From: a virus
Strand: one strand, 5' to 3'
Length of the DNA: 64,000 bases
UHGV virus genome: UHGV-0036853
Of this stretch, positions 39,001 through 48,000 are shown piece by piece. The position numbers were made by a program. Position 1 is the stretch's first letter; the number at the start of each line of letters is the position of its first letter.

Positions 39001-42000
39001 CAGCAGCGAAAAACTCTGCGGGATAATGAGTTTTCAACCACATAGATTGATAACTGATTAAGGAGTAAGCAACAGAGTGTGATTTGTTGAACTGGTAGGC
39101 ACCATTCTTTTCGAATGCGGTCCAGATCTCCTTCGCTTTCATCTCTGATAGCCCTGGATGTGACGCTGTAACGCGTACTGCGTTTATAGGTAGTTTTGCG
39201 CCGTACTCAAGTGCCTCTTCGACAGTTTTCAGAGTTCCGTCTTCGCATTTAAAATGTTCCGCACGGTGAATGCGCTGTGTAGTGCCATCTTCCAGCTCAA
39301 CGTCTATCCAGCCAGCTTGAGCCTGAACGATGAACTTCTCGCCCATGCTCTTCATTTTTTCCATGTCTTTTTTGCCGATCGCTTTACGAACGCCGTCAGC
39401 TTCAGCCATTGTGAAGCCAGCAAGCAATCGAGTCGCGTTCATCGTCTGTTCCTGATAGAGAATCACGCCATTTGTTTCTGCGGTAAGTTCATCAAGAACG
39501 GGGTGTAATGATTCCGGCGTCATAAAGCCTTTGGCGACAGAAACATAATCATCCAACATGCCTGACTGAATTGGTCCCGGCCGGAAGAGCGCAGTCGTAG
39601 CAACGACCGTTTTAAAGCTCATTGGCTCAATTCCACCACCTAAATCTTTAAGCAGCTTGCGCATTGGGCCTGATTCAAGCTGGAAAACACCTTGAGTGTA
39701 CCCAGCAGCAAAACCATCCAGCACCTTGCGATCTTCAAGAGAAATGGCATCAAGATTGATATCTTCACCTCTGTTCTCTTTTATGTAGCGTTTTGCACTA
39801 TCGAGCAAATCGAGAGTTGCTAGGCCAAGCACGTCCAGCTTAATTAGGCCCATAGCCTCGCAGTAACGCTTGTCAAATGCGATACAACGCGCGTCACCAC
39901 GTCGTTCAACCGGTGTACGTTCTGTCAGAGGAACACCTGCTACGATCATCCCTGCCGCATGTCTACCAAAGCCACGCATAAGGCTTTGTAACTTGCAGGC
40001 TGCATTGAATGCATCAGGGTATTTTGTCGCGTATTTGTCGAGACTTGCCAGTTGTTCGCGCAGCTCCTCCAATGGAAGGCTATCATCCTCGACGTTCTTC
40101 AGTTCTTTTGATACCGCCATATCTGCGGACTCCACACCATAAATACGAGCGGTGTCACGTAGTGCAGAGGCCGCGCCCAGGTAGGTGAAGTTCGGAATGC
40201 CTGCAACGTAATCTTCGCCGTAGCGTTCATTCAGATACTCGATCACCTCATGGCGACGTGCCTGGCTGAAGTCCAAGTCCGCATCTGGCAAGTCGAGACG
40301 CTCAGGGTTGATGAAACGCTCAAACAGAAGACCGTGACGGATTGGGTCGACGTTGGTTATGCCTATGCACCACGCCACCAGAGAACCGGCAGAGGAACCA
40401 CGACCAGGCCCAACGGGAATGCCAGTTTCACGACTATGATTCATCAGATCGCGCACCATCAGGAAGTAACCACAGAATCCCAGGCGAGTAAGCGTGTCCA
40501 TTTCGTACTTTAGCCGCTCAACATAAACCCTGTTCTCAGAAGCTGGTGGTGTGTAGCCAAACTCTTTTGTGGTAAGACGTTTACGCAGCCCTGCAACAGC
40601 CAGTTTCATCAGCGTTGCAGGTTCGTCGTCTGCCATCTTGGGCAGTGCTGGTGGCAATTCATGCCAGCGCCATGTACAGGCTTCGATAATGGCGTCCTGC
40701 GTTGTTGAGGCCATTGCAGCTGTTACCGGCACATCCATGCGAACGGAGAAGGCTTTAAGCGCCTCAAGGAGATGGCGGCGACCATTGACGGCGTTATCTC
40801 GCTGGTGGGGGATACGCAGACGATGCGGCTGGTCGATTTTGATGTTGTTCGTAACCATGTGCGCAATGTCTTTAATGTCTGCATCGTCGATCGATTCGTA
40901 ATAAGCGGGATAAAACGCTACTGGCTCTATTTTCAGTGCGCTGGCGACTTTCATCGCCCGGAAGTTAATCTGGTCGTAGAATGGGGTAGGGTGCGGATAA
41001 ACCACACTATAGAAGTTGTCTTTTCCACCCGCTGTAATCAGTGTGCTTATAATTTTTGCAAAATCGTTGCGTTGGAACACGCTACCGATGTCGGAAGTGA
41101 GCAGGATGATGTTGCCTTTGGCATATGTAGAAACCAACTGTTCGAGCGAGAGACGCGGTACAAAGTAGAACTGTTCTCGTGTGTTGGCCACCGTCATTAG
41201 TTCGCAGATGTCGCGATATCCTTGCTCATTTTTAATTAGAGCGGTAAACGAGTAGTTACGTCCTCGCTCTAATGATTCCATACATCCCTTAGACTCTTTA
41301 GCAAGTTTAGCCCGGTACTCGTATGTGGGATCATCAACGATATTTAGTTTCACACCACAAATAACCGCCATGTCGTCACCAGCGGCACGTTGTAGTGGAA
41401 TAACACTCGCAATATTCATGCTATCTGCTGAAATTACAGCGGTGTAGCCAGCTTCTCTGGCAATCTTCACCGCGTTTTCCGCTTTTAACGCCGACTCCCC
41501 AAGTGAGAAGTCAGTTCGAACCATCAGTGCCTTCATGTGTTTTTACCTTTCTGGTTTTTTTGATTTTGTCATTGGGGAAGCCTACGAACTTCCCATGCAT
41601 CGAAATCGCAACTTCTTTTGCTGATTGGTGACAATCGGGCTTGTCTGGACACACCAGACAAGCCTTACCAGTTTCAGAAGCAGCGATAAGAGAGCCGAAA
41701 CATCCTTTACGCACGATCAACCAAATATTTTTTGAACAACTTCACGAGCCGCTTGTGCAGAAGCTGAAGGGAGTTTGTTAATGAAAGAACGCTCAATACC
41801 TGTCACGAAGTCGCCTCGCATCATTCCAATCTTGGCCGACAACAAAAGCTCACGAGGCCCAATCGGTTGGCTGATGTTGTGTTCTTCGTAACCATCGCGA
41901 ACGATACCGGCAAACTTAACCATCTTTTCAGCGTATTCATCCACGATGCCGGCATTTATCAACATGTTGATCTCTGCCTCTTTGCTCATGTATTTCACAT

Positions 42001-45000: not shown

Positions 45001-48000
45001 GTTTACGAGAATTGGCTCTCCATCATCGTTATAGCGTACATAAGCGTCGTCCCCTCGTTCTGCAACAGGGATGTTTTTACCTGAAAGGAGAGCGACTACT
45101 CGTTTTACACTGTCACGGAAGTCCTGAACCTCTTTGATGGAACGTTTTTTAGACATGTCTAATCCTTTGTTATGAAAACAAATTGTTTACTAGTGTGTTT
45201 AATGTAGCACTGCGCGAACAGGGAACTAAGCCATTCGCGCAGGGAGAAGAGGGGTTAACAGATTCTGACGGCTAAAGACCCGGAGCCGGTATTGAGAAGC
45301 GTGAAGCGTTTGTTGTTAAGTTCGAATATAAAGCCAGTTGTGTCATTCACACCAACCTGAATCTGCTCATTCGGTAGATCGGTGAGGATGTCAGCTACAC
45401 ACTCATCAGCTAATTTCTGTACGTGTCCGATCTCAAGAGCGATTAGGCTGGAAATAGTGGTTTTCATTCAATCAATCCATTCTAACTTATACTATGGTAA
45501 GGAATACTACTAAAATTTGTATCAATACTGAATACATCCATATCAGATGCAAGTTAATTTTCTTACCTATTTTGGGCTAGTTTTTCTCCATGCATGGACC
45601 TTTACTCGGTCTTACAAGTGCCTGCCGAAAAAAATGATAATAGCTTTACAACCCTAACCTTTGATGTAATATCGGTAAGCACTTACCAGAGAGAATTAAA
45701 CGCGCAAAGGTTGTAACAATGTCTGACAACAAGATTGAATTTATAGAAAGTCGCTATGCTGCTTTTATCGCAGGGCTGATTGAATCCTCACCTATGAGTC
45801 AGGCCCAAATAGCCAGACTTATTGGTTATAAAAATGCCAACAACCTTTCTTTAATTAAAAGTGGCAAAATTCCTTTGCCTATCGATAAGGTTCGTCCGTT
45901 GGCGCTGGCGCTGGGTATTGAGCCAAGTCGTCTTATGATGATGGTGCTGGAAGAACGCCAACCTGAACTCGCAGCATTTTTATACAAAGAAGGCACCGCT
46001 CCTCTTAACGAGGACGAAAAACAGGTTCTTGCTGCATATAACGAGCGATTCGGTAAAGAGAAAGGCGCATCACAAAAGGTTGTTGAGGCCATAAAGTCTC
46101 TATGAAAAATTTACACGAATAAGCTCTGTTGATAGACGATCTCCCTTGAATTTGTGGTCAATTTCGTCTAAATCCGGTTGCTCTACGATTGATGCGATGT
46201 ACGTCGAGAAACTTTCTAAGGCGTCTCGCATCTCGTCCATATAATCGTGCCGGTCGTAGACCCGATCTATCCCCTCAAGACTGTGGTTCATGATTTTGCG
46301 TGATACCTCCTGGCTTATGCCTAATGCTGGGAAGTAACTACGCGCAGTACGGCGCAAATCTCGGGGTGTAAATGGCTCAAGCTCCATCAGTTCTGGTCTT
46401 TCCAGAATACGACGTAATGCCTGGGCTATTGCCACTTTGGACATAGGAAGGTCTTTCCCGATTTTTTTATTCGAAGGCACGAGCCACTGGCTGTCTTTAC
46501 CGTATTCGAACAACTCTTCAATGCATGTGCGCATTAATGTGCTTAAAGGCAGCGAATGCTCACGTGCTGACTTGTTTCTCTTGCCTTGATTCCAAACCCC
46601 ACGCTTAAGATTGAACTCACTTTTTTTAGCCCGCAGTACTTCGTCAGGTCGTCTTGCTGATACAAGACACAGCCTGGCCGCCCATTTTGTACCAGCGCAC
46701 ACATTGAAGTAGTCCCATATATTCCAGAACACCCATACCTCTGCGTCGGTCAGCTTCCGCTCGCGAGGTGTGGGCTTTGCGCCACCGGCAACTTTGTTTA
46801 GTGACATATCGTTTAACGGTGACACGTCTATCATCCCCTGGAAGGCGCACCAGCTAAGGAACTGCTTCATCAGAGAGAAAACGCGGCGGCCCATAACAAT
46901 TTTGCCATCCAGTATTAGTGGGTTGACCAGTTGGTTCACCATGAACCTATTAATGTCACTTACTTTTACATCGGCAATGTGCGGCAAAACATGTATCAAA
47001 ATACAATGAACAGCGATCTCTGGCCGACGTCTGGTTATCAGCAGAGATAAGCGAGTGAATAACATGAATGCGTCCGAGAATCTCATATCATTGCTAACCT
47101 GCGAGATCATAACGGCCTGCATTTGAGATGCTCTTTCGAGATACTCAATCGCCTCTTTTGAGGTGTTCTCCGCAGCGCGTGCTCTGTCAAAGCTATTTTT
47201 CATATGACAATCACCGAGTTACGCCGATTCACTGTATAAGTAAACAGTATATTAGGCATAGATTCTTATAGGATCAAGAGTAAAAGTAACTCATTTTCAC
47301 TAATGATTCCATACATAGTAGGTATGGAATCATTTAGACGTTGTTTTTTGAATTTTAAGGGAAACAGGAGTGAGTTTGGTGGGAATAAAAAAACGGCTCC
47401 TGTGAGCCGTTAAAATCAGAGGGTGCTGACGTATGCAGCCAGTTCTGTGTATCCGCCAATCGGCTGGCCATCGATCAGCACCTGGGGGATAGTCTCTACC
47501 GGTTTACCAACAATTTCACTTAGTTTTTCCTTGTCGATACCGGCAGTGGTGATGTCGATGTACTCATAATCACCGTAGCCATGTCCCTTTAGTTGCTTCG
47601 CCAGCTCGACTGCACGTTTGCAGTATGAGCAGTTATCTCGTCCGTAGATAGTGATCGTCATAACCTAACAAATACCTTTATAAATATTGATTCGAACATA
47701 TCAGACTATACTACAAACAGATTTTTTTGATAAGTATGTAGTAACTTATTGATTGACTGGTAAACAATTGAAGTGATTATGACAATAGATTACAGTAAGG
47801 ATTGCCTTGAAATGTACATTTTATAGAGGTTTTAATGATTGGTAAGTTGTCTGATTCTTTGATTGAAAATAAATACAACGAATTTAGAGAAGAAATATCT
47901 TTACTTTTTGACTATTTAAATCAGATAAATGATACAACAAAGAAAAATATAAAACGTCTTCTAAAAGAAGTGGAGTATGCACAGAATCCAGATACTATTA

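What the first reader, a model, noticed from the sequence alone, without database searches (positions are those of the whole stretch)
41717..45156. CobS/CobT-like AAA+ ATPase plus VWA protein pair
A MoxR/CobS-like AAA+ ATPase and a 702-aa protein with a VWA (MIDAS) domain and a long acidic Ser/Asp-rich segment form a conserved module downstream of the polymerase. Such AAA+/VWA pairs in phages are poorly characterised and could be chaperone-like remodelers for replication or virion assembly.
Basis: partly seen in the sequence, partly recalled or inferred. Interest (0 to 1): 0.4.

Follow-up and report, generated by a model that had tools for sequence, protein, structure and literature searches.

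The report
Phage CobS/CobT-like ATPase–VWA–HExxH module
Two adjacent genes in the DNA-replication block of an E. coli phage-plasmid encode an ATP-driven motor and an adaptor protein related to the vitamin-B12 cobalt-chelatase subunits, but the adaptor keeps a zinc-protease-type motif that the real chelatase has lost, so it is probably a protein-remodelling machine, not a B12 enzyme.

Summary
Two minus-strand genes encode a 702-aa CobT-like protein (43048-45156) and a 411-aa CobS-like MoxR-class AAA+ ATPase (41717-42952). The CobT-like protein has an N-domain, a disordered acidic Ser/Asp linker and a VWA domain with a complete MIDAS. The window is an SSU5/Cyrano-type phage-plasmid of E. coli.

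The pair lies upstream of the DnaE polymerase in the direction of transcription, not downstream.

It is not a cobaltochelatase equivalog. NCBIfam scores are 87 and 67 bits against cut-offs of 558 and 759, and the near-identical phage Cyrano has no annotated CobN.

The viral CobT-like N-domain carries a conserved HExxH...E-D...E motif. It is present in 148 of 150 family representatives and in 0 of 120 canonical CobT N-termini.

The pair sits in replication gene blocks of phages that use family C, family A and T4-type replisomes.

Most likely it is an ATP-driven MoxR/VWA remodeller, possibly a metalloprotease, acting during phage replication. Its substrate is unknown.

Iyer et al. (2021) already described a MoxR-vWA-metallopeptidase pair in T4-like jumbo phages, so this is a new member of a known but uncharacterised kind. 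No fold match supports peptidase identity, and one lineage has lost the motif.

The parts
43048..45156 (-). CobT-like gene, 702 aa. It encodes an N-domain, an acidic disordered linker, a middle region and a VWA/MIDAS domain.
   Evidence: ORF. Pfam CobT E 8e-27 and CobT_C E 2e-82. PHROG 1576 E 3e-301. Profile match to solved CobT 9uka_G, E 4e-63. AlphaFold2 mean pLDDT 85.
44467..45156 (-). N-terminal domain (aa 1-230): a helix, three beta-strands, then a helical bundle. It is the candidate zincin-like metallopeptidase domain.
   Evidence: The stand-alone AlphaFold2 model has pLDDT 92.5. 1118 family representatives at 50% clustering match with E<=1e-3. There is no significant PDB fold match, best E 0.5.
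44923..44937 (-). HEVAH motif (aa 74-78). The partner acidic residues E106, D107 and E111 lie on the next long helix.
   Evidence: H74, E106 and E111 are invariant, and E75, H78 and D107 are at least 90% conserved, in 123 representatives. 148 of 150 representatives carry HE..H. The helices span 62-81 and 98-117. Canonical CobT has D-[SA]-[MIVL]-A-L-[RK] at this position, with 0 of 120 sequences carrying HExxH.
44122..44466 (-). Acidic Ser/Asp-rich disordered linker (aa 231-345).
   Evidence: 29% D+E and 19% S. pLDDT is about 55 and below across 231-340, under 50 for 252-337. No tandem DNA repeat underlies it. Canonical CobT also has an acidic linker.
43612..43626 (-). MIDAS D-x-S-x-S (DLSGS, aa 511-515) of the VWA domain.
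   Evidence: D511, S513 and S515 are invariant, and T548, T549, S632 and D633 are at least 90% conserved. The closest solved VWA domains by fold are NorD and midasin MIDAS.
41717..42952 (-). CobS-like MoxR-class AAA+ ATPase gene, 411 aa.
   Evidence: Pfam AAA_5 E 2e-15. PHROG 249 E 3e-106. Solved CobS 9ujv E 4e-26, then midasin, CbbQ and NorQ. Catalytic motifs are invariant.
42860..42901 (-). C-x2-C-x4-H-x4-H motif (CKWCGKSFHYFKSH, aa 18-31) in the ~140-aa N-terminal extension of the ATPase. It is a possible zinc finger.
   Evidence: The motif is present in 19 of 24 CobS-like proteins of the DnaE-linked loci, which include a nickie-like contig, and in phage nickie's own CobS. It is degenerate in RHEph10 and absent from cyanophage, ICP2 and canonical CobS. 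No Pfam hit.
42407..42430 (-). Walker A motif GHAGTGKS (aa 175-182). The Walker B motif VYLADE is at aa 237-242.
41511..41720 (-). 69-aa Cys-rich ORF (GCFGS-x8-C-x2-C-x5-C). It overlaps the CobS-like stop by 4 nt and the DnaE start by 26 nt, and is a probable third member of the module.
   Evidence: PHROG 6337 E 2e-45. It is conserved at protein level in the same position in SSU5-like, Xenorhabdus, Photobacterium and Morganella elements. It also matches the N-termini of phage nickie gp102 and RHEph10 gp046. No Pfam family.
38018..41536 (-). DnaE-type (family C) DNA polymerase gene, the next gene downstream in the same orientation. It is context, not part of the pair.
   Evidence: Pfam PHP, DNA_pol3_alpha, finger and HHH_6 domains. 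The order is conserved in 44 loci.
45255..45467 (-). 70-aa hypothetical gene just upstream of the CobT-like gene. It is probably the first gene of the transcription unit and faces a divergent HTH regulator gene (45719..46105, +).
   Evidence: PHROG 2627 E 6e-41. It is conserved upstream of the CobT-like gene only in the enterobacterial subgroup. Operon membership is inferred from orientation and spacing.

Best explanation
The pair encodes a two-component, ATP-driven protein-remodelling machine of the MoxR-AAA+/VWA type, made as part of the phage's lytic replication gene block. It is not a cobalt chelatase.

By analogy with CobST, NorQD and CbbQO, the CobS-like protein should form a hexameric ring. 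That ring would grip the VWA domain of one CobT-like adaptor, and the adaptor's MIDAS site would capture an acidic residue of a protein substrate. ATP hydrolysis would pull or twist through the long acidic linker.

The adaptor also carries an N-terminal domain with an intact HExxH...E zinc-binding/catalytic signature. The machine therefore probably cuts, or holds in a zinc-dependent way, the protein it engages.

The substrate is unknown. It is most likely a phage or host protein whose remodelling is needed while the phage genome is being replicated.

What is shown: the domain architecture, intact ATPase and MIDAS motifs, the conserved HExxH...E motif, its loss from canonical CobT, and conserved placement in replication modules.

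What is inferred: complex formation and stoichiometry, zinc binding, peptidase activity, timing in this phage, and the link to replication as a function rather than just a shared expression class.
For: 1. Architecture and homology. The ATPase matches AAA_5 and solved CobS at E 4e-26, with Walker A/B and the residues at the sensor-1, Arg-finger and sensor-2 positions invariant. The adaptor matches CobT_C/VWA at E 2e-82 with a complete MIDAS. The closest solved VWA folds are NorD and midasin MIDAS.

2. It is not a cobaltochelatase.
- NCBIfam equivalog scores are 87 against a cut-off of 558 (CobS) and 67 against 759 (CobT).
- DnaE is the only ORF of CobN size in the window.
- No CobN is annotated in the two stretches of the 97.6%-identical phage Cyrano that I read (record 33293-105999). 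Cyrano encodes a class Ia ribonucleotide reductase (NrdAB), which by textbook knowledge does not use B12, and ThyX.

3. The HExxH motif.
- H74, E106 and E111 are invariant, and E75, H78 and D107 are at least 90% conserved, in 123 representatives at 27-61% identity.
- 148 of 150 representatives have HE..H.
- The motif is also present in cyanophage, ICP2 and Gordonia-phage homologues.
- 0 of 120 canonical CobT N-termini have it. 119 have RGxxD-[SA]-[MIVL]-A-L-[RK] at the aligned position instead.
- The two His lie on helix 62-81 and the Glu residues on the following helix 98-117. That is the arrangement expected for a gluzincin-type site (inference).

4. Replication context.
- 44 of 84 loci have CobT-like, CobS-like and DnaE in order, embedded in DnaB-primase-ligase...UvsY-SSB-Exo.
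- 8 T4-like contigs and cyanophage P-SSM2 place the pair next to the gp45 and gp44 genes.
- Contig L033 places it between DnaB/primase and a family A polymerase.
- Vibrio phage ICP2 places it just ahead of primase, helicase and polymerase genes.

5. Timing. cobS is used as the early-gene marker for P-SSM2 (PMC6628666).

6. Mechanistic template. In NorQD, a finger of the VWA domain enters the hexamer pore and the ATPase remodels the adaptor's linker (PMC13036017).

7. Precedent. Iyer et al. 2021 independently described a phage MoxR-vWA pair in which the vWA protein is fused to an N-terminal metallopeptidase (PMC7824862).
Against: - The N-domain has no significant fold match to any solved zincin (best Foldseek E 0.5). 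It has no Pfam peptidase hit. Peptidase identity therefore rests on a sequence motif plus helix placement. I could not inspect the model coordinates to check the geometry of the site.
- The Pseudomonas phage nickie lineage keeps the gene pair, MIDAS and Walker motifs in the same place but has lost HExxH (SEISK). Canonical CobT works without the motif too. Catalysis by this domain is therefore not universally required.
- Synteny is guilt by association, and most of the 44 DnaE-linked loci belong to one phage supergroup, so they are not independent observations.
- No expression, genetic or biochemical data exist for this element.
- The only timing evidence is a methods statement about a distant cyanophage.
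Confidence: 0.5

Rival explanations
1. Auxiliary metabolic gene. The pair is a true CobS/CobT cobaltochelatase motor that teams up with a host CobN to raise cobalamin production. This is the usual reading in the phage literature.
For: The pair is clearly homologous to CobS and CobT, including solved structures. The hypothesis is stated for archaeal and bacterial viruses in PMC8651126. The AMG annotation is repeated in PMC11288001 and PMC11705849.
Against: - Scores are far below the NCBIfam equivalog cut-offs.
- No CobN gene is seen in the window or in the parts of Cyrano read.
- By established knowledge, E. coli makes no corrin ring and Salmonella uses the CbiK (anaerobic) route, so the hosts have no CobN. 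I did not test this here.
- The element's ribonucleotide reductase is class Ia, which by textbook knowledge is B12-independent.
- The N-domain differs from canonical CobT exactly at the HExxH site.
- The genes sit inside replication blocks, not with metabolic genes.
Confidence: 0.06
2. Virion-assembly chaperone/protease. The MoxR-VWA pair folds or processes structural proteins, as proposed for T4-like jumbo phages and as reported for the tail of Acidianus two-tailed virus.
For: This is the proposal of Iyer et al. 2021 for the homologous pair with an N-terminal metallopeptidase (PMC7824862). MoxR/VWA systems are assembly chaperones in several settings (PMC7159879).
Against: In none of the lineages examined is the pair next to structural genes. 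Where reference-gene neighbours are identifiable, they are replication or recombination genes. cobS is used as an early-gene marker in P-SSM2.
Confidence: 0.13
3. Host take-over or anti-defence. The machine captures and inactivates or degrades a host protein, such as a defence, nucleoid or replication-control factor, early in the lytic cycle.
For: - Early expression in P-SSM2.
- A protease-like head joined to a MIDAS capture domain.
- A statistically real but short similarity between the conserved N-x-x-E-D-x-x-I-E helix and anti-CRISPR AcrIIA26 (E 0.002; 21.4 bits against a maximum of 10 in 20,000 shuffles; hhalign probability 55%).
- This reading overlaps with the best explanation, which leaves the substrate open.
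Against: No PADLOC family matches apart from a weak DrmE hit (E 0.0014). Anti-defence genes are usually variable accessory genes, whereas this pair is core, syntenic and conserved across hosts from Enterobacterales to cyanobacteria. AcrIIA26 has no HExxH and the match covers only about 50 residues.
Confidence: 0.15
4. Metal-cofactor insertase for a phage replication or nucleotide enzyme, for example the PHP domain of DnaE or the ribonucleotide reductase. This would be analogous to NorQD (iron into cNOR) or the chelatases.
For: Many MoxR/VWA pairs insert metals. DnaE with a PHP domain lies immediately downstream. The element encodes NrdAB.
Against: The pair is equally associated with family A and T4-type replisomes, which are not expected to have a PHP domain (textbook knowledge). 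An HExxH...E site is typical of a hydrolase, not of an insertase adaptor.
Confidence: 0.1

Closest known systems
Aerobic cobaltochelatase motor CobS/CobT (EC 6.6.1.2; solved structures 9ujv and 9uka-9ukh; NCBIfam TIGR01650/TIGR01651)
   Same: It is a two-gene pair: a MoxR-class AAA+ ATPase and an adaptor built as N-domain, acidic linker and VWA/MIDAS. Sequence homology runs through all parts. E106 and E111 are conserved in both.
   Different: - Scores are far below the equivalog cut-offs.
- There is no CobN partner.
- The phage N-domain has DHEVAH where canonical CobT has D-[SA]-[MIVL]-A-L-[RK].
- The ATPase has a ~140-aa N-terminal extension with a C2H2-like motif.
- The gene order here is CobT-like then CobS-like, inside a replication block. 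In the one canonical locus I read, cobS precedes cobT next to BolA and DnaJ-domain genes.
MoxR AAA+ / vWA pair with an N-terminal metallopeptidase on the vWA protein, in T4-like (group 2.2) jumbo phages and cyanomyoviruses (Iyer et al. 2021). In cyanophages the pair is annotated 'cobS' plus 'peptidase'.
   Same: The architecture and the HExxH...N-x-x-E-D-x-x-I-E motif are the same. Both sit beside replication genes.
   Different: Identity is only about 22-30%. The T4-like ATPase lacks the C2H2-like extension. Its neighbours are gp45 and gp44 instead of DnaE. In P-SSM2 three genes separate the two partners. The published proposal is virion assembly, which the gene context found here does not favour.
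NorQ/NorD (iron insertion into nitric oxide reductase) and CbbQ/CbbO (Rubisco activase)
   Same: Both are a MoxR hexamer plus one VWA/MIDAS adaptor with a functional linker. NorD is the best solved fold match for the VWA domain, and NorQ and CbbQ match the ATPase. The NorQD mechanism comes from PMC13036017.
   Different: NorD has no HExxH N-domain described in the sources I read. The CbbQ/CbbO comparison rests on my own knowledge apart from the ATPase match. Their targets are respiratory or carbon-fixation enzymes, and their sequence similarity is much weaker than that of CobS/CobT.
Gluzincin-type zinc metallopeptidases (HExxH plus a downstream Glu)
   Same: HExxH lies on one helix and an invariant Glu on the following helix. 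A small beta-sheet precedes the motif helix.
   Different: There is no significant sequence-family or fold match to any solved or Pfam peptidase. Activity is untested, and the motif has been lost in the nickie lineage.

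Membership tests
Cobaltochelatase CobS/CobT (functional equivalog) | Whole-protein score above the curated equivalog cut-off (TIGR01650 CobS, TIGR01651 CobT) | tested here: not met
   87.1 bits against a cut-off of 558.55, and 67 bits against 759.05.
Cobaltochelatase CobS/CobT (functional equivalog) | A CobN substrate-binding subunit available (on the element or in the host) | tested here: not met
   On the element, DnaE is the only ORF of CobN size in the window, and no CobN is annotated in the parts of Cyrano read (record 33293-105999). That the E. coli and Salmonella hosts lack CobN is established knowledge and was not tested here.
Cobaltochelatase CobS/CobT (functional equivalog) | Canonical CobT N-domain signature RGxxD-[SA]-[MIVL]-A-L-[RK] | tested here: not met
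   The window protein has RGFLDHEVAH. 119 of 120 canonical sequences carry the signature and 0 of 120 carry HExxH.
CobS/CobT superfamily (homology only) | Significant sequence similarity of both partners to CobS and CobT, including solved structures | tested here: met
   CobS 9ujv E 4e-26. CobT 9uka_G E 7e-13 with a single sequence and 4e-63 with a profile. Pfam CobT and CobT_C also match.
MoxR-class AAA+ / VWA two-component remodellers | AAA_5-type ATPase with intact Walker A, Walker B, sensor 1, Arg finger and sensor 2 | tested here: met
   G175, G178, G180, K181, D241, E242, N288, R312 and R367 are invariant across 7 divergent homologues. The roles given to N288, R312 and R367 are inferred from position.
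MoxR-class AAA+ / VWA two-component remodellers | An adjacent gene encoding a VWA domain with a complete MIDAS | tested here: met
   DLSGS at 511-515, T548/T549 and S632-D633 are conserved. By the automated count, 65 of 84 loci have the two genes within 2.5 kb. Two more have overlapping genes that the count missed, and most of the rest are truncated contigs.
MoxR-class AAA+ / VWA two-component remodellers | A physical hexamer-adaptor complex with ATP-dependent remodelling | not testable with these tools
   No complex prediction or biochemistry was available. This is inferred from CobST and NorQD structures.
Zincin (gluzincin) metallopeptidases | HExxH on a helix plus a third-ligand Glu on a following helix | tested here: met
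   H74, E75 and H78 lie on helix 62-81, and E106 and E111 on helix 98-117. They are invariant or at least 90% conserved.
Zincin (gluzincin) metallopeptidases | Recognisable zincin fold or family match | tested here: not met
   Foldseek of the N-domain model against the PDB gave a best E of 0.5. No Pfam peptidase family matched any of 48 members. A PDB profile search found no peptidase. There is only a weak PHROG 459 'peptidase' hit, and that family is the cyanophage homologue itself.
Zincin (gluzincin) metallopeptidases | Zinc binding and peptide-bond hydrolysis | not testable with these tools
   This requires purified protein.
Phage MoxR-vWA pair with N-terminal metallopeptidase (Iyer et al. 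2021) | A MoxR ATPase gene plus a vWA gene whose product has an N-terminal HExxH domain, in a tailed phage | tested here: met
   The architecture is shown. The P-SSM2 'peptidase' and cobS, and 20 T4-like contigs, share the motif. The description is in PMC7824862. I did not retrieve that paper's example accessions.

The most novel reading that the evidence does not exclude
The viral CobS/CobT-like pair is a new type of ATP-dependent protease working in trans. A MoxR ring drives a MIDAS-targeted zinc metallopeptidase that cleaves a specific replisome, recombination or host protein to license phage DNA replication. On this reading the cellular cobaltochelatase CobT is a catalytically dead descendant recruited from this phage machine. 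The anti-CRISPR AcrIIA26 may be another offshoot of the same N-domain.
Probability: 0.2. Interest if true: 0.7.

Novelty: new member of a known kind. Interest (0 to 1): 0.45.

Why it matters
CobS/CobT-like genes are among the most widespread phage genes routinely called 'auxiliary metabolic'. They are core in marine cyanomyoviruses, the CobS-like gene is found in 494 phage records, and the pair is carried by SSU5-type phage-plasmids in 244 of 5426 complete E. coli genomes.

If they are protein-remodelling or proteolytic factors of the replication phase, then many viromics papers count them wrongly as vitamin-B12 genes. A conserved and still unknown step of phage replication would also become testable.

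SSU5/Cyrano in E. coli or Salmonella is a far more tractable system for this than cyanophages.

The contrast between HExxH-bearing viral proteins and HExxH-less canonical CobT also gives a simple rule for telling the two apart in annotation.

Tried and rejected
- PADLOC scan: no defence family, only a weak DrmE hit (E 0.0014) that I treat as noise.
- Foldseek of the full model: only VWA matches.
- Foldseek of the N-domain alone against the PDB: nothing significant. Against viral models it matched only other CobT-like or VWFA proteins.
- Pfam scan of 48 N-domains at E<=1: only CobT.
- Pfam scan of the ATPase N-terminal extension and of the Cys-rich small proteins: nothing.
- Promoter and terminator scan of 37900-46200: 9 promoter-like sites found against 11.8 expected, and 6 terminator-like against 8.2 expected. 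This is uninformative.
- Tandem repeats in the linker DNA: none of note.
- The first attempt to obtain full-length canonical CobT returned only N-terminally truncated proteins. I solved this by reading the genomic locus, which has an assembly frameshift, and by a second search with the N-terminal piece.
- The Xanthomonas phage JGB6 hit under 'DNA polymerase III' lies in a heavily frameshifted assembly and was not pursued.
- Literature searches for CobT+HExxH and pHCM2+cobT found nothing relevant. The LF82/Cyrano paper says nothing about these genes.
- I could not read the model coordinates, so the geometry of the putative metal site was not checked.

Full report
**What the window is**

The 5 kb around the finding is 97.6% identical to Escherichia phage Cyrano, the pLF82 phage-plasmid. 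It is about 75% identical to Salmonella phage SSU5 over the part that aligns. Similar DNA occurs in 244 of 5426 complete E. coli genomes, and all 258 places are on plasmids. The element is therefore an SSU5-type phage-plasmid.

**The observation**

The two ORFs are real. Both are on the minus strand: a 702-aa gene at 43048..45156 and a 411-aa gene at 41717..42952.

The transcription order is:
- a 70-aa hypothetical gene (45255..45467)
- the 702-aa gene
- the 411-aa gene
- a 69-aa Cys-rich ORF (41511..41720)
- the DnaE-type polymerase gene (38018..41536)

The spacings are 98 nt and 95 nt, followed by overlaps of 4 nt and 26 nt. The pair is therefore upstream of the polymerase gene in the sense that matters, not downstream.

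A UvsY-like gene, a gp32-like SSB gene and an exonuclease gene follow further along. A divergent HTH regulator gene and an integrase gene lie on the other side.

**The ATPase**

The 411-aa protein matches Pfam AAA_5 (E 2e-15) and PHROG 249 (E 3e-106). Among solved structures it matches CobS best (E 4e-26), followed by midasin, CbbQ and NorQ.

In an alignment with six divergent homologues, including true CobS, these residues are invariant:
- Walker A: G175, G178, G180, K181
- Walker B: D241, E242
- N288, at the sensor-1 position
- R312, at the Arg-finger position
- R367, at the sensor-2 position

The roles given to N288, R312 and R367 are my assignment from their positions. The protein looks like a competent ATPase.

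It has a ~140-aa N-terminal extension that canonical CobS lacks. The extension begins with C-x2-C-x4-H-x4-H (CKWCGKSFHYFKSH, aa 18-31). That motif is present in 19 of 24 homologues from the DnaE-linked loci and in phage nickie's own CobS. It is degenerate in RHEph10 and absent from cyanophage, ICP2 and canonical CobS. No Pfam family covers it.

**The adaptor**

The 702-aa protein matches Pfam CobT (residues 9-294, E 8e-27) and CobT_C/VWA (residues 492-701, E 2e-82). A family profile matches solved CobT 9uka_G at E 4e-63.

AlphaFold2 with 123 family representatives gives a mean pLDDT of 85. The model has a folded N-domain (about residues 1-230), a stretch of low confidence (pLDDT about 55 and below across 231-340, under 50 for 252-337) and a folded C-terminal half. 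Residues 230-345 are 29% Asp+Glu and 19% Ser. No tandem DNA repeat lies beneath this stretch.

The MIDAS is complete. D511, S513 and S515 are invariant, and T548, T549, S632 and D633 are at least 90% conserved. The best solved fold matches for the C-terminal half are the VWA domains of NorD and midasin.

**It is not a cobaltochelatase equivalog**

- The NCBIfam equivalog models score 87 bits against a cut-off of 558 for CobS, and 67 bits against 759 for CobT.
- DnaE is the only ORF of CobN size in the window.
- In the two stretches of Cyrano that I read (record 33293-105999), no CobN or other cobalamin-pathway gene is annotated apart from the mislabelled pair itself.
- Cyrano encodes a class Ia ribonucleotide reductase and ThyX. 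By textbook knowledge class Ia reductases do not use B12, so the usual argument that B12 feeds a class II reductase does not apply.
- By established knowledge, not tested here, E. coli makes no corrin ring and Salmonella uses the anaerobic CbiK route, so these hosts offer no CobN.

Cyrano's own labels for the pair are 'cobalamin synthetase' and 'dimethylbenzimidazole phosphoribosyltransferase'. These come from a name collision with the unrelated Salmonella CobS and CobT enzymes.

**The new feature: a conserved zincin-type motif**

The N-domain reads ...RGFLDHEVAHILFTD...WNALEDVFIERKM.... A search of 1.84 billion cluster representatives with residues 1-230 found 1118 proteins at E<=1e-3. Of the best 150, 148 carry HE..H in their first 200 residues. 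One exception is a fragment and the other reads HQVAL.

In an alignment of 123 full-length representatives at 27-61% identity, H74, E106 and E111 are invariant. E75, H78, D107 and N103 are at least 90% conserved (confirmed on a 48-sequence N-domain alignment).

The motif is also present in very distant viral homologues:
- the 'peptidase' genes of T4-like cyanophages (HEVGH ... N-x-x-E-D-x-R-I-E)
- Vibrio phage ICP2 (HECYH)
- Gordonia phage Woes (HEIGH)

In the models the two His lie on helix 62-81. The Glu residues lie on the next long helix, 98-117, and a helix plus a three-stranded sheet come before the motif helix. That is the layout expected of a gluzincin. This is my inference, because I could not read the coordinates.

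**Canonical CobT has lost the motif**

I recovered the N-terminus of a Brucellaceae CobT that is 99% identical to the solved 9uka protein over the 302-residue C-terminal segment compared. The gene is split by an assembly frameshift in that genome.

Profile-profile alignment places its RGLGDSMALRQARH under RGFLDHEVAHILFT. This gives H74 to S, E75 to M and H78 to R, while E106 and E111 are kept.

Of 120 canonical CobT N-termini at 51-98% identity to that sequence, none has HExxH. 119 have RGxxD-[SA]-[MIVL]-A-L-[RK]. In that one genome cobS and cobT sit next to BolA and DnaJ-domain genes.

**Limits of the peptidase reading**

- A stand-alone model of the N-domain (pLDDT 92.5) has no significant match in the PDB (best E 0.5).
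- It matches only other viral CobT-like or VWFA proteins in BFVD.
- No Pfam peptidase family hits any of 48 members.
- The Pseudomonas phage nickie lineage keeps the pair, the MIDAS and the Walker A motif in the same syntenic place. But it reads FLDSEISKVLY ... NPLESFF, so it has lost the motif.

The ATPase/VWA function can therefore persist without this site, as it does in canonical CobT.

**Genomic context across phages**

I fetched 53 viral contigs and 31 genome contigs that encode relatives. I scored their ORFs against reference replication proteins. Of the 84 loci:
- By the automated count, 65 have a CobS-like gene within 2.5 kb. Two more (L032, L088) have overlapping genes that the count missed. 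Most of the rest are truncated contigs. One subgroup (L041, L045, L053-L056) shows no adjacent CobS-like gene in the sequence available; only L045 has substantial flanking sequence on both sides.
- 44 have the order CobT-like, CobS-like, DnaE.

That order is usually embedded in DnaB-primase-ligase ... CobT-CobS-(small gene)-DnaE-UvsY-SSB-Exo. This block is shared by Pseudomonas phage nickie and Rhizobium phage RHEph10 at about 32% identity. It is also found in ~100-118 kb contigs from Yersinia, Xenorhabdus, Morganella, Massilia, Phyllobacterium, Ancylobacter, Paracoccus and Magnetospirillum, and in shorter contigs from Phormidium and a Chloroflexi MAG. These loci belong to one phage supergroup, so they are not independent.

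Independent lineages tell the same story:
- In P-SSM2 the 'peptidase' and cobS lie between gp46 and gp45/gp44.
- Eight T4-like contigs have CobT-like, CobS-like, gp45 and, in six of them, gp44.
- Contig L033 has DnaB-primase-CobS-CobT-(CxxCxxCC protein)-family A polymerase-SSB-RecA.
- In ICP2 the pair directly precedes primase, helicase and a T7-like polymerase.

The association is therefore with the replication gene block in general, across family C, family A and T4-type replisomes. It is not with DnaE specifically.

One paper uses cobS as its early-gene marker for P-SSM2 (PMC6628666).

**What is known**

The usual phage literature calls these genes auxiliary metabolic genes for cobalamin. 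One paper proposes hijacking of host CobN and remarks that cyanophage cobT is 'mistakenly annotated as a peptidase' (PMC8651126). Others admit the function is uncertain.

Iyer et al. 2021 read the T4-like version differently. They describe a MoxR AAA+/vWA chaperone pair whose vWA protein has an N-terminal metallopeptidase domain, and they propose a role in virion assembly (PMC7824862).

The kind of system is therefore already described. I found no description of the SSU5-type member, with its zinc-finger-like ATPase extension, Cys-rich small partner and DnaE linkage, in the papers searched.

**Mechanism**

The NorQD structures show a finger of the VWA domain inside the pore of the MoxR hexamer, with ATP-driven twisting of the adaptor's linker (PMC13036017).

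Transferring that template gives the following model. A CobS-like hexamer holds one CobT-like adaptor by its VWA domain. The MIDAS captures an acidic residue of a substrate. ATP hydrolysis works through the acidic linker. The HExxH domain binds or cleaves the captured protein.

All of these steps are inferred. The substrate is unknown.

I put 0.5 on the core statement: a remodelling machine of the replication phase, not a chelatase. I put about 0.2 on the stronger reading in which the N-domain is an active protease with a specific replication-licensing substrate and canonical CobT descends from this phage machine.

**Rivals**

- True cobaltochelatase AMG: 0.06
- Virion-assembly chaperone or protease: 0.13
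- Host take-over or anti-defence: 0.15
- Metal-cofactor insertase for a replication or nucleotide enzyme: 0.10

Evidence for and against each is given in the structured fields.

**Side observations**

A profile of the N-domain hits the anti-CRISPR AcrIIA26 (9zq6_B, residues 42-92) at E 0.0021.
- The real fragment scores 21.4 bits, against a maximum of 10.0 in 20,000 shuffles.
- hhalign gives 55% probability.
- The aligned N-F-V-E-D-N-F-I-E contains N46, E49 and D50, which contact the PAM-reading arginines of Cas9 (PMC13089141). These residues align with N103, E106 and D107.
- AcrIIA26 has no HExxH.

This may be remote homology or convergence, and I leave it open.

The window also carries hdeA/hdeB-like genes where Cyrano has hicAB.

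**Verdict**

This is a new member of a known but functionally uncharacterised kind of system. Interest is moderate (0.45). The pair is very widespread, is usually mis-annotated, and is now testable in a tractable E. coli or Salmonella system.

Noticed in passing
window 37240-37572 (+) and 37647-37985 (+): Two HdeA/HdeB-family genes (periplasmic acid-stress chaperones; Pfam PF06411, E 5e-28 and 5e-24) sit between the UvsY-like gene and DnaE. Phage Cyrano carries a HicA/HicB toxin-antitoxin pair at the same position. This is a variable cargo slot inside the replication block.
   Followed up: partly
window 44467-45156 (-), aa 94-143 of the CobT-like N-domain: The conserved N-x-x-E-D-x-x-I-E helix and about 40 following residues resemble anti-CRISPR AcrIIA26 residues 42-92. 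The profile E-value is 0.0021, the real fragment scores 21.4 bits against a maximum of 10 in 20,000 shuffles, and hhalign gives 55% probability. The aligned AcrIIA26 residues N46, E49 and D50 bind the PAM-reading arginines of Cas9. AcrIIA26 has no HExxH.
   Followed up: partly
window 41511-41720 (-): A 69-aa ORF with a TTG start has the motif GCFGS-x8-C-x2-C-x5-C and overlaps both the CobS-like stop and the DnaE start. It is not annotated in Cyrano. It is conserved at protein level in the same slot in many related elements, and it matches the N-termini of ~180-aa proteins in phages nickie and RHEph10.
   Followed up: partly
L009 13772-18024; L010 12200-15775; L022 13735-17830; L062 12869-16692: In several related elements the DnaE gene is split into two ORFs, with a gap of about 0.07-0.7 kb between them. 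This suggests an inserted element or intervening sequence, or assembly frameshifts. Contig L033 has intein and LAGLIDADG insertions in its family A polymerase and RecA genes.
   Followed up: no
window 45205-45245 (-): A 12-13 bp stem-loop with core CUGCGCGAA...UUCGCGCAG lies in the 98-nt gap between the 70-aa gene and the CobT-like gene. The folding z-score is -2.5 and there is no T-run after it, so it is probably not an intrinsic terminator.
   Followed up: partly
window 48923-49924 (-): A cluster of four tRNA genes: Ser-TGA, Thr-TGT, Tyr-GTA and Asn-GTT. The Cyrano record annotates only Ser, Thr and Asn at the matching place.
   Followed up: no
window 38018-38600 (-), DnaE aa ~1000-1172: The polymerase has a C-terminal extension that matches separate PHROGs of unknown function (13175 and 4335). 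The RHEph10 homologue is annotated as 'uracil-DNA glycosylase-like'. Pfam gave no hit there.
   Followed up: no
L001 9718-13157 (phage Cyrano record OV696614): The deposited annotation calls the pair 'cobalamin synthetase' and 'dimethylbenzimidazole phosphoribosyltransferase'. Those are the unrelated Salmonella-nomenclature CobS and CobT enzymes, so this is a name-collision error that can propagate.
   Followed up: yes
L005 1024-5380 (Brucellaceae genome GCA_012103055): In this genome the canonical cobS and cobT genes lie next to BolA-family and DnaJ-domain genes and a ribosomal protein L28 gene, not next to cobN or other cobalamin genes. The cobT gene there is broken by a frameshift in the assembly.
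   Followed up: no
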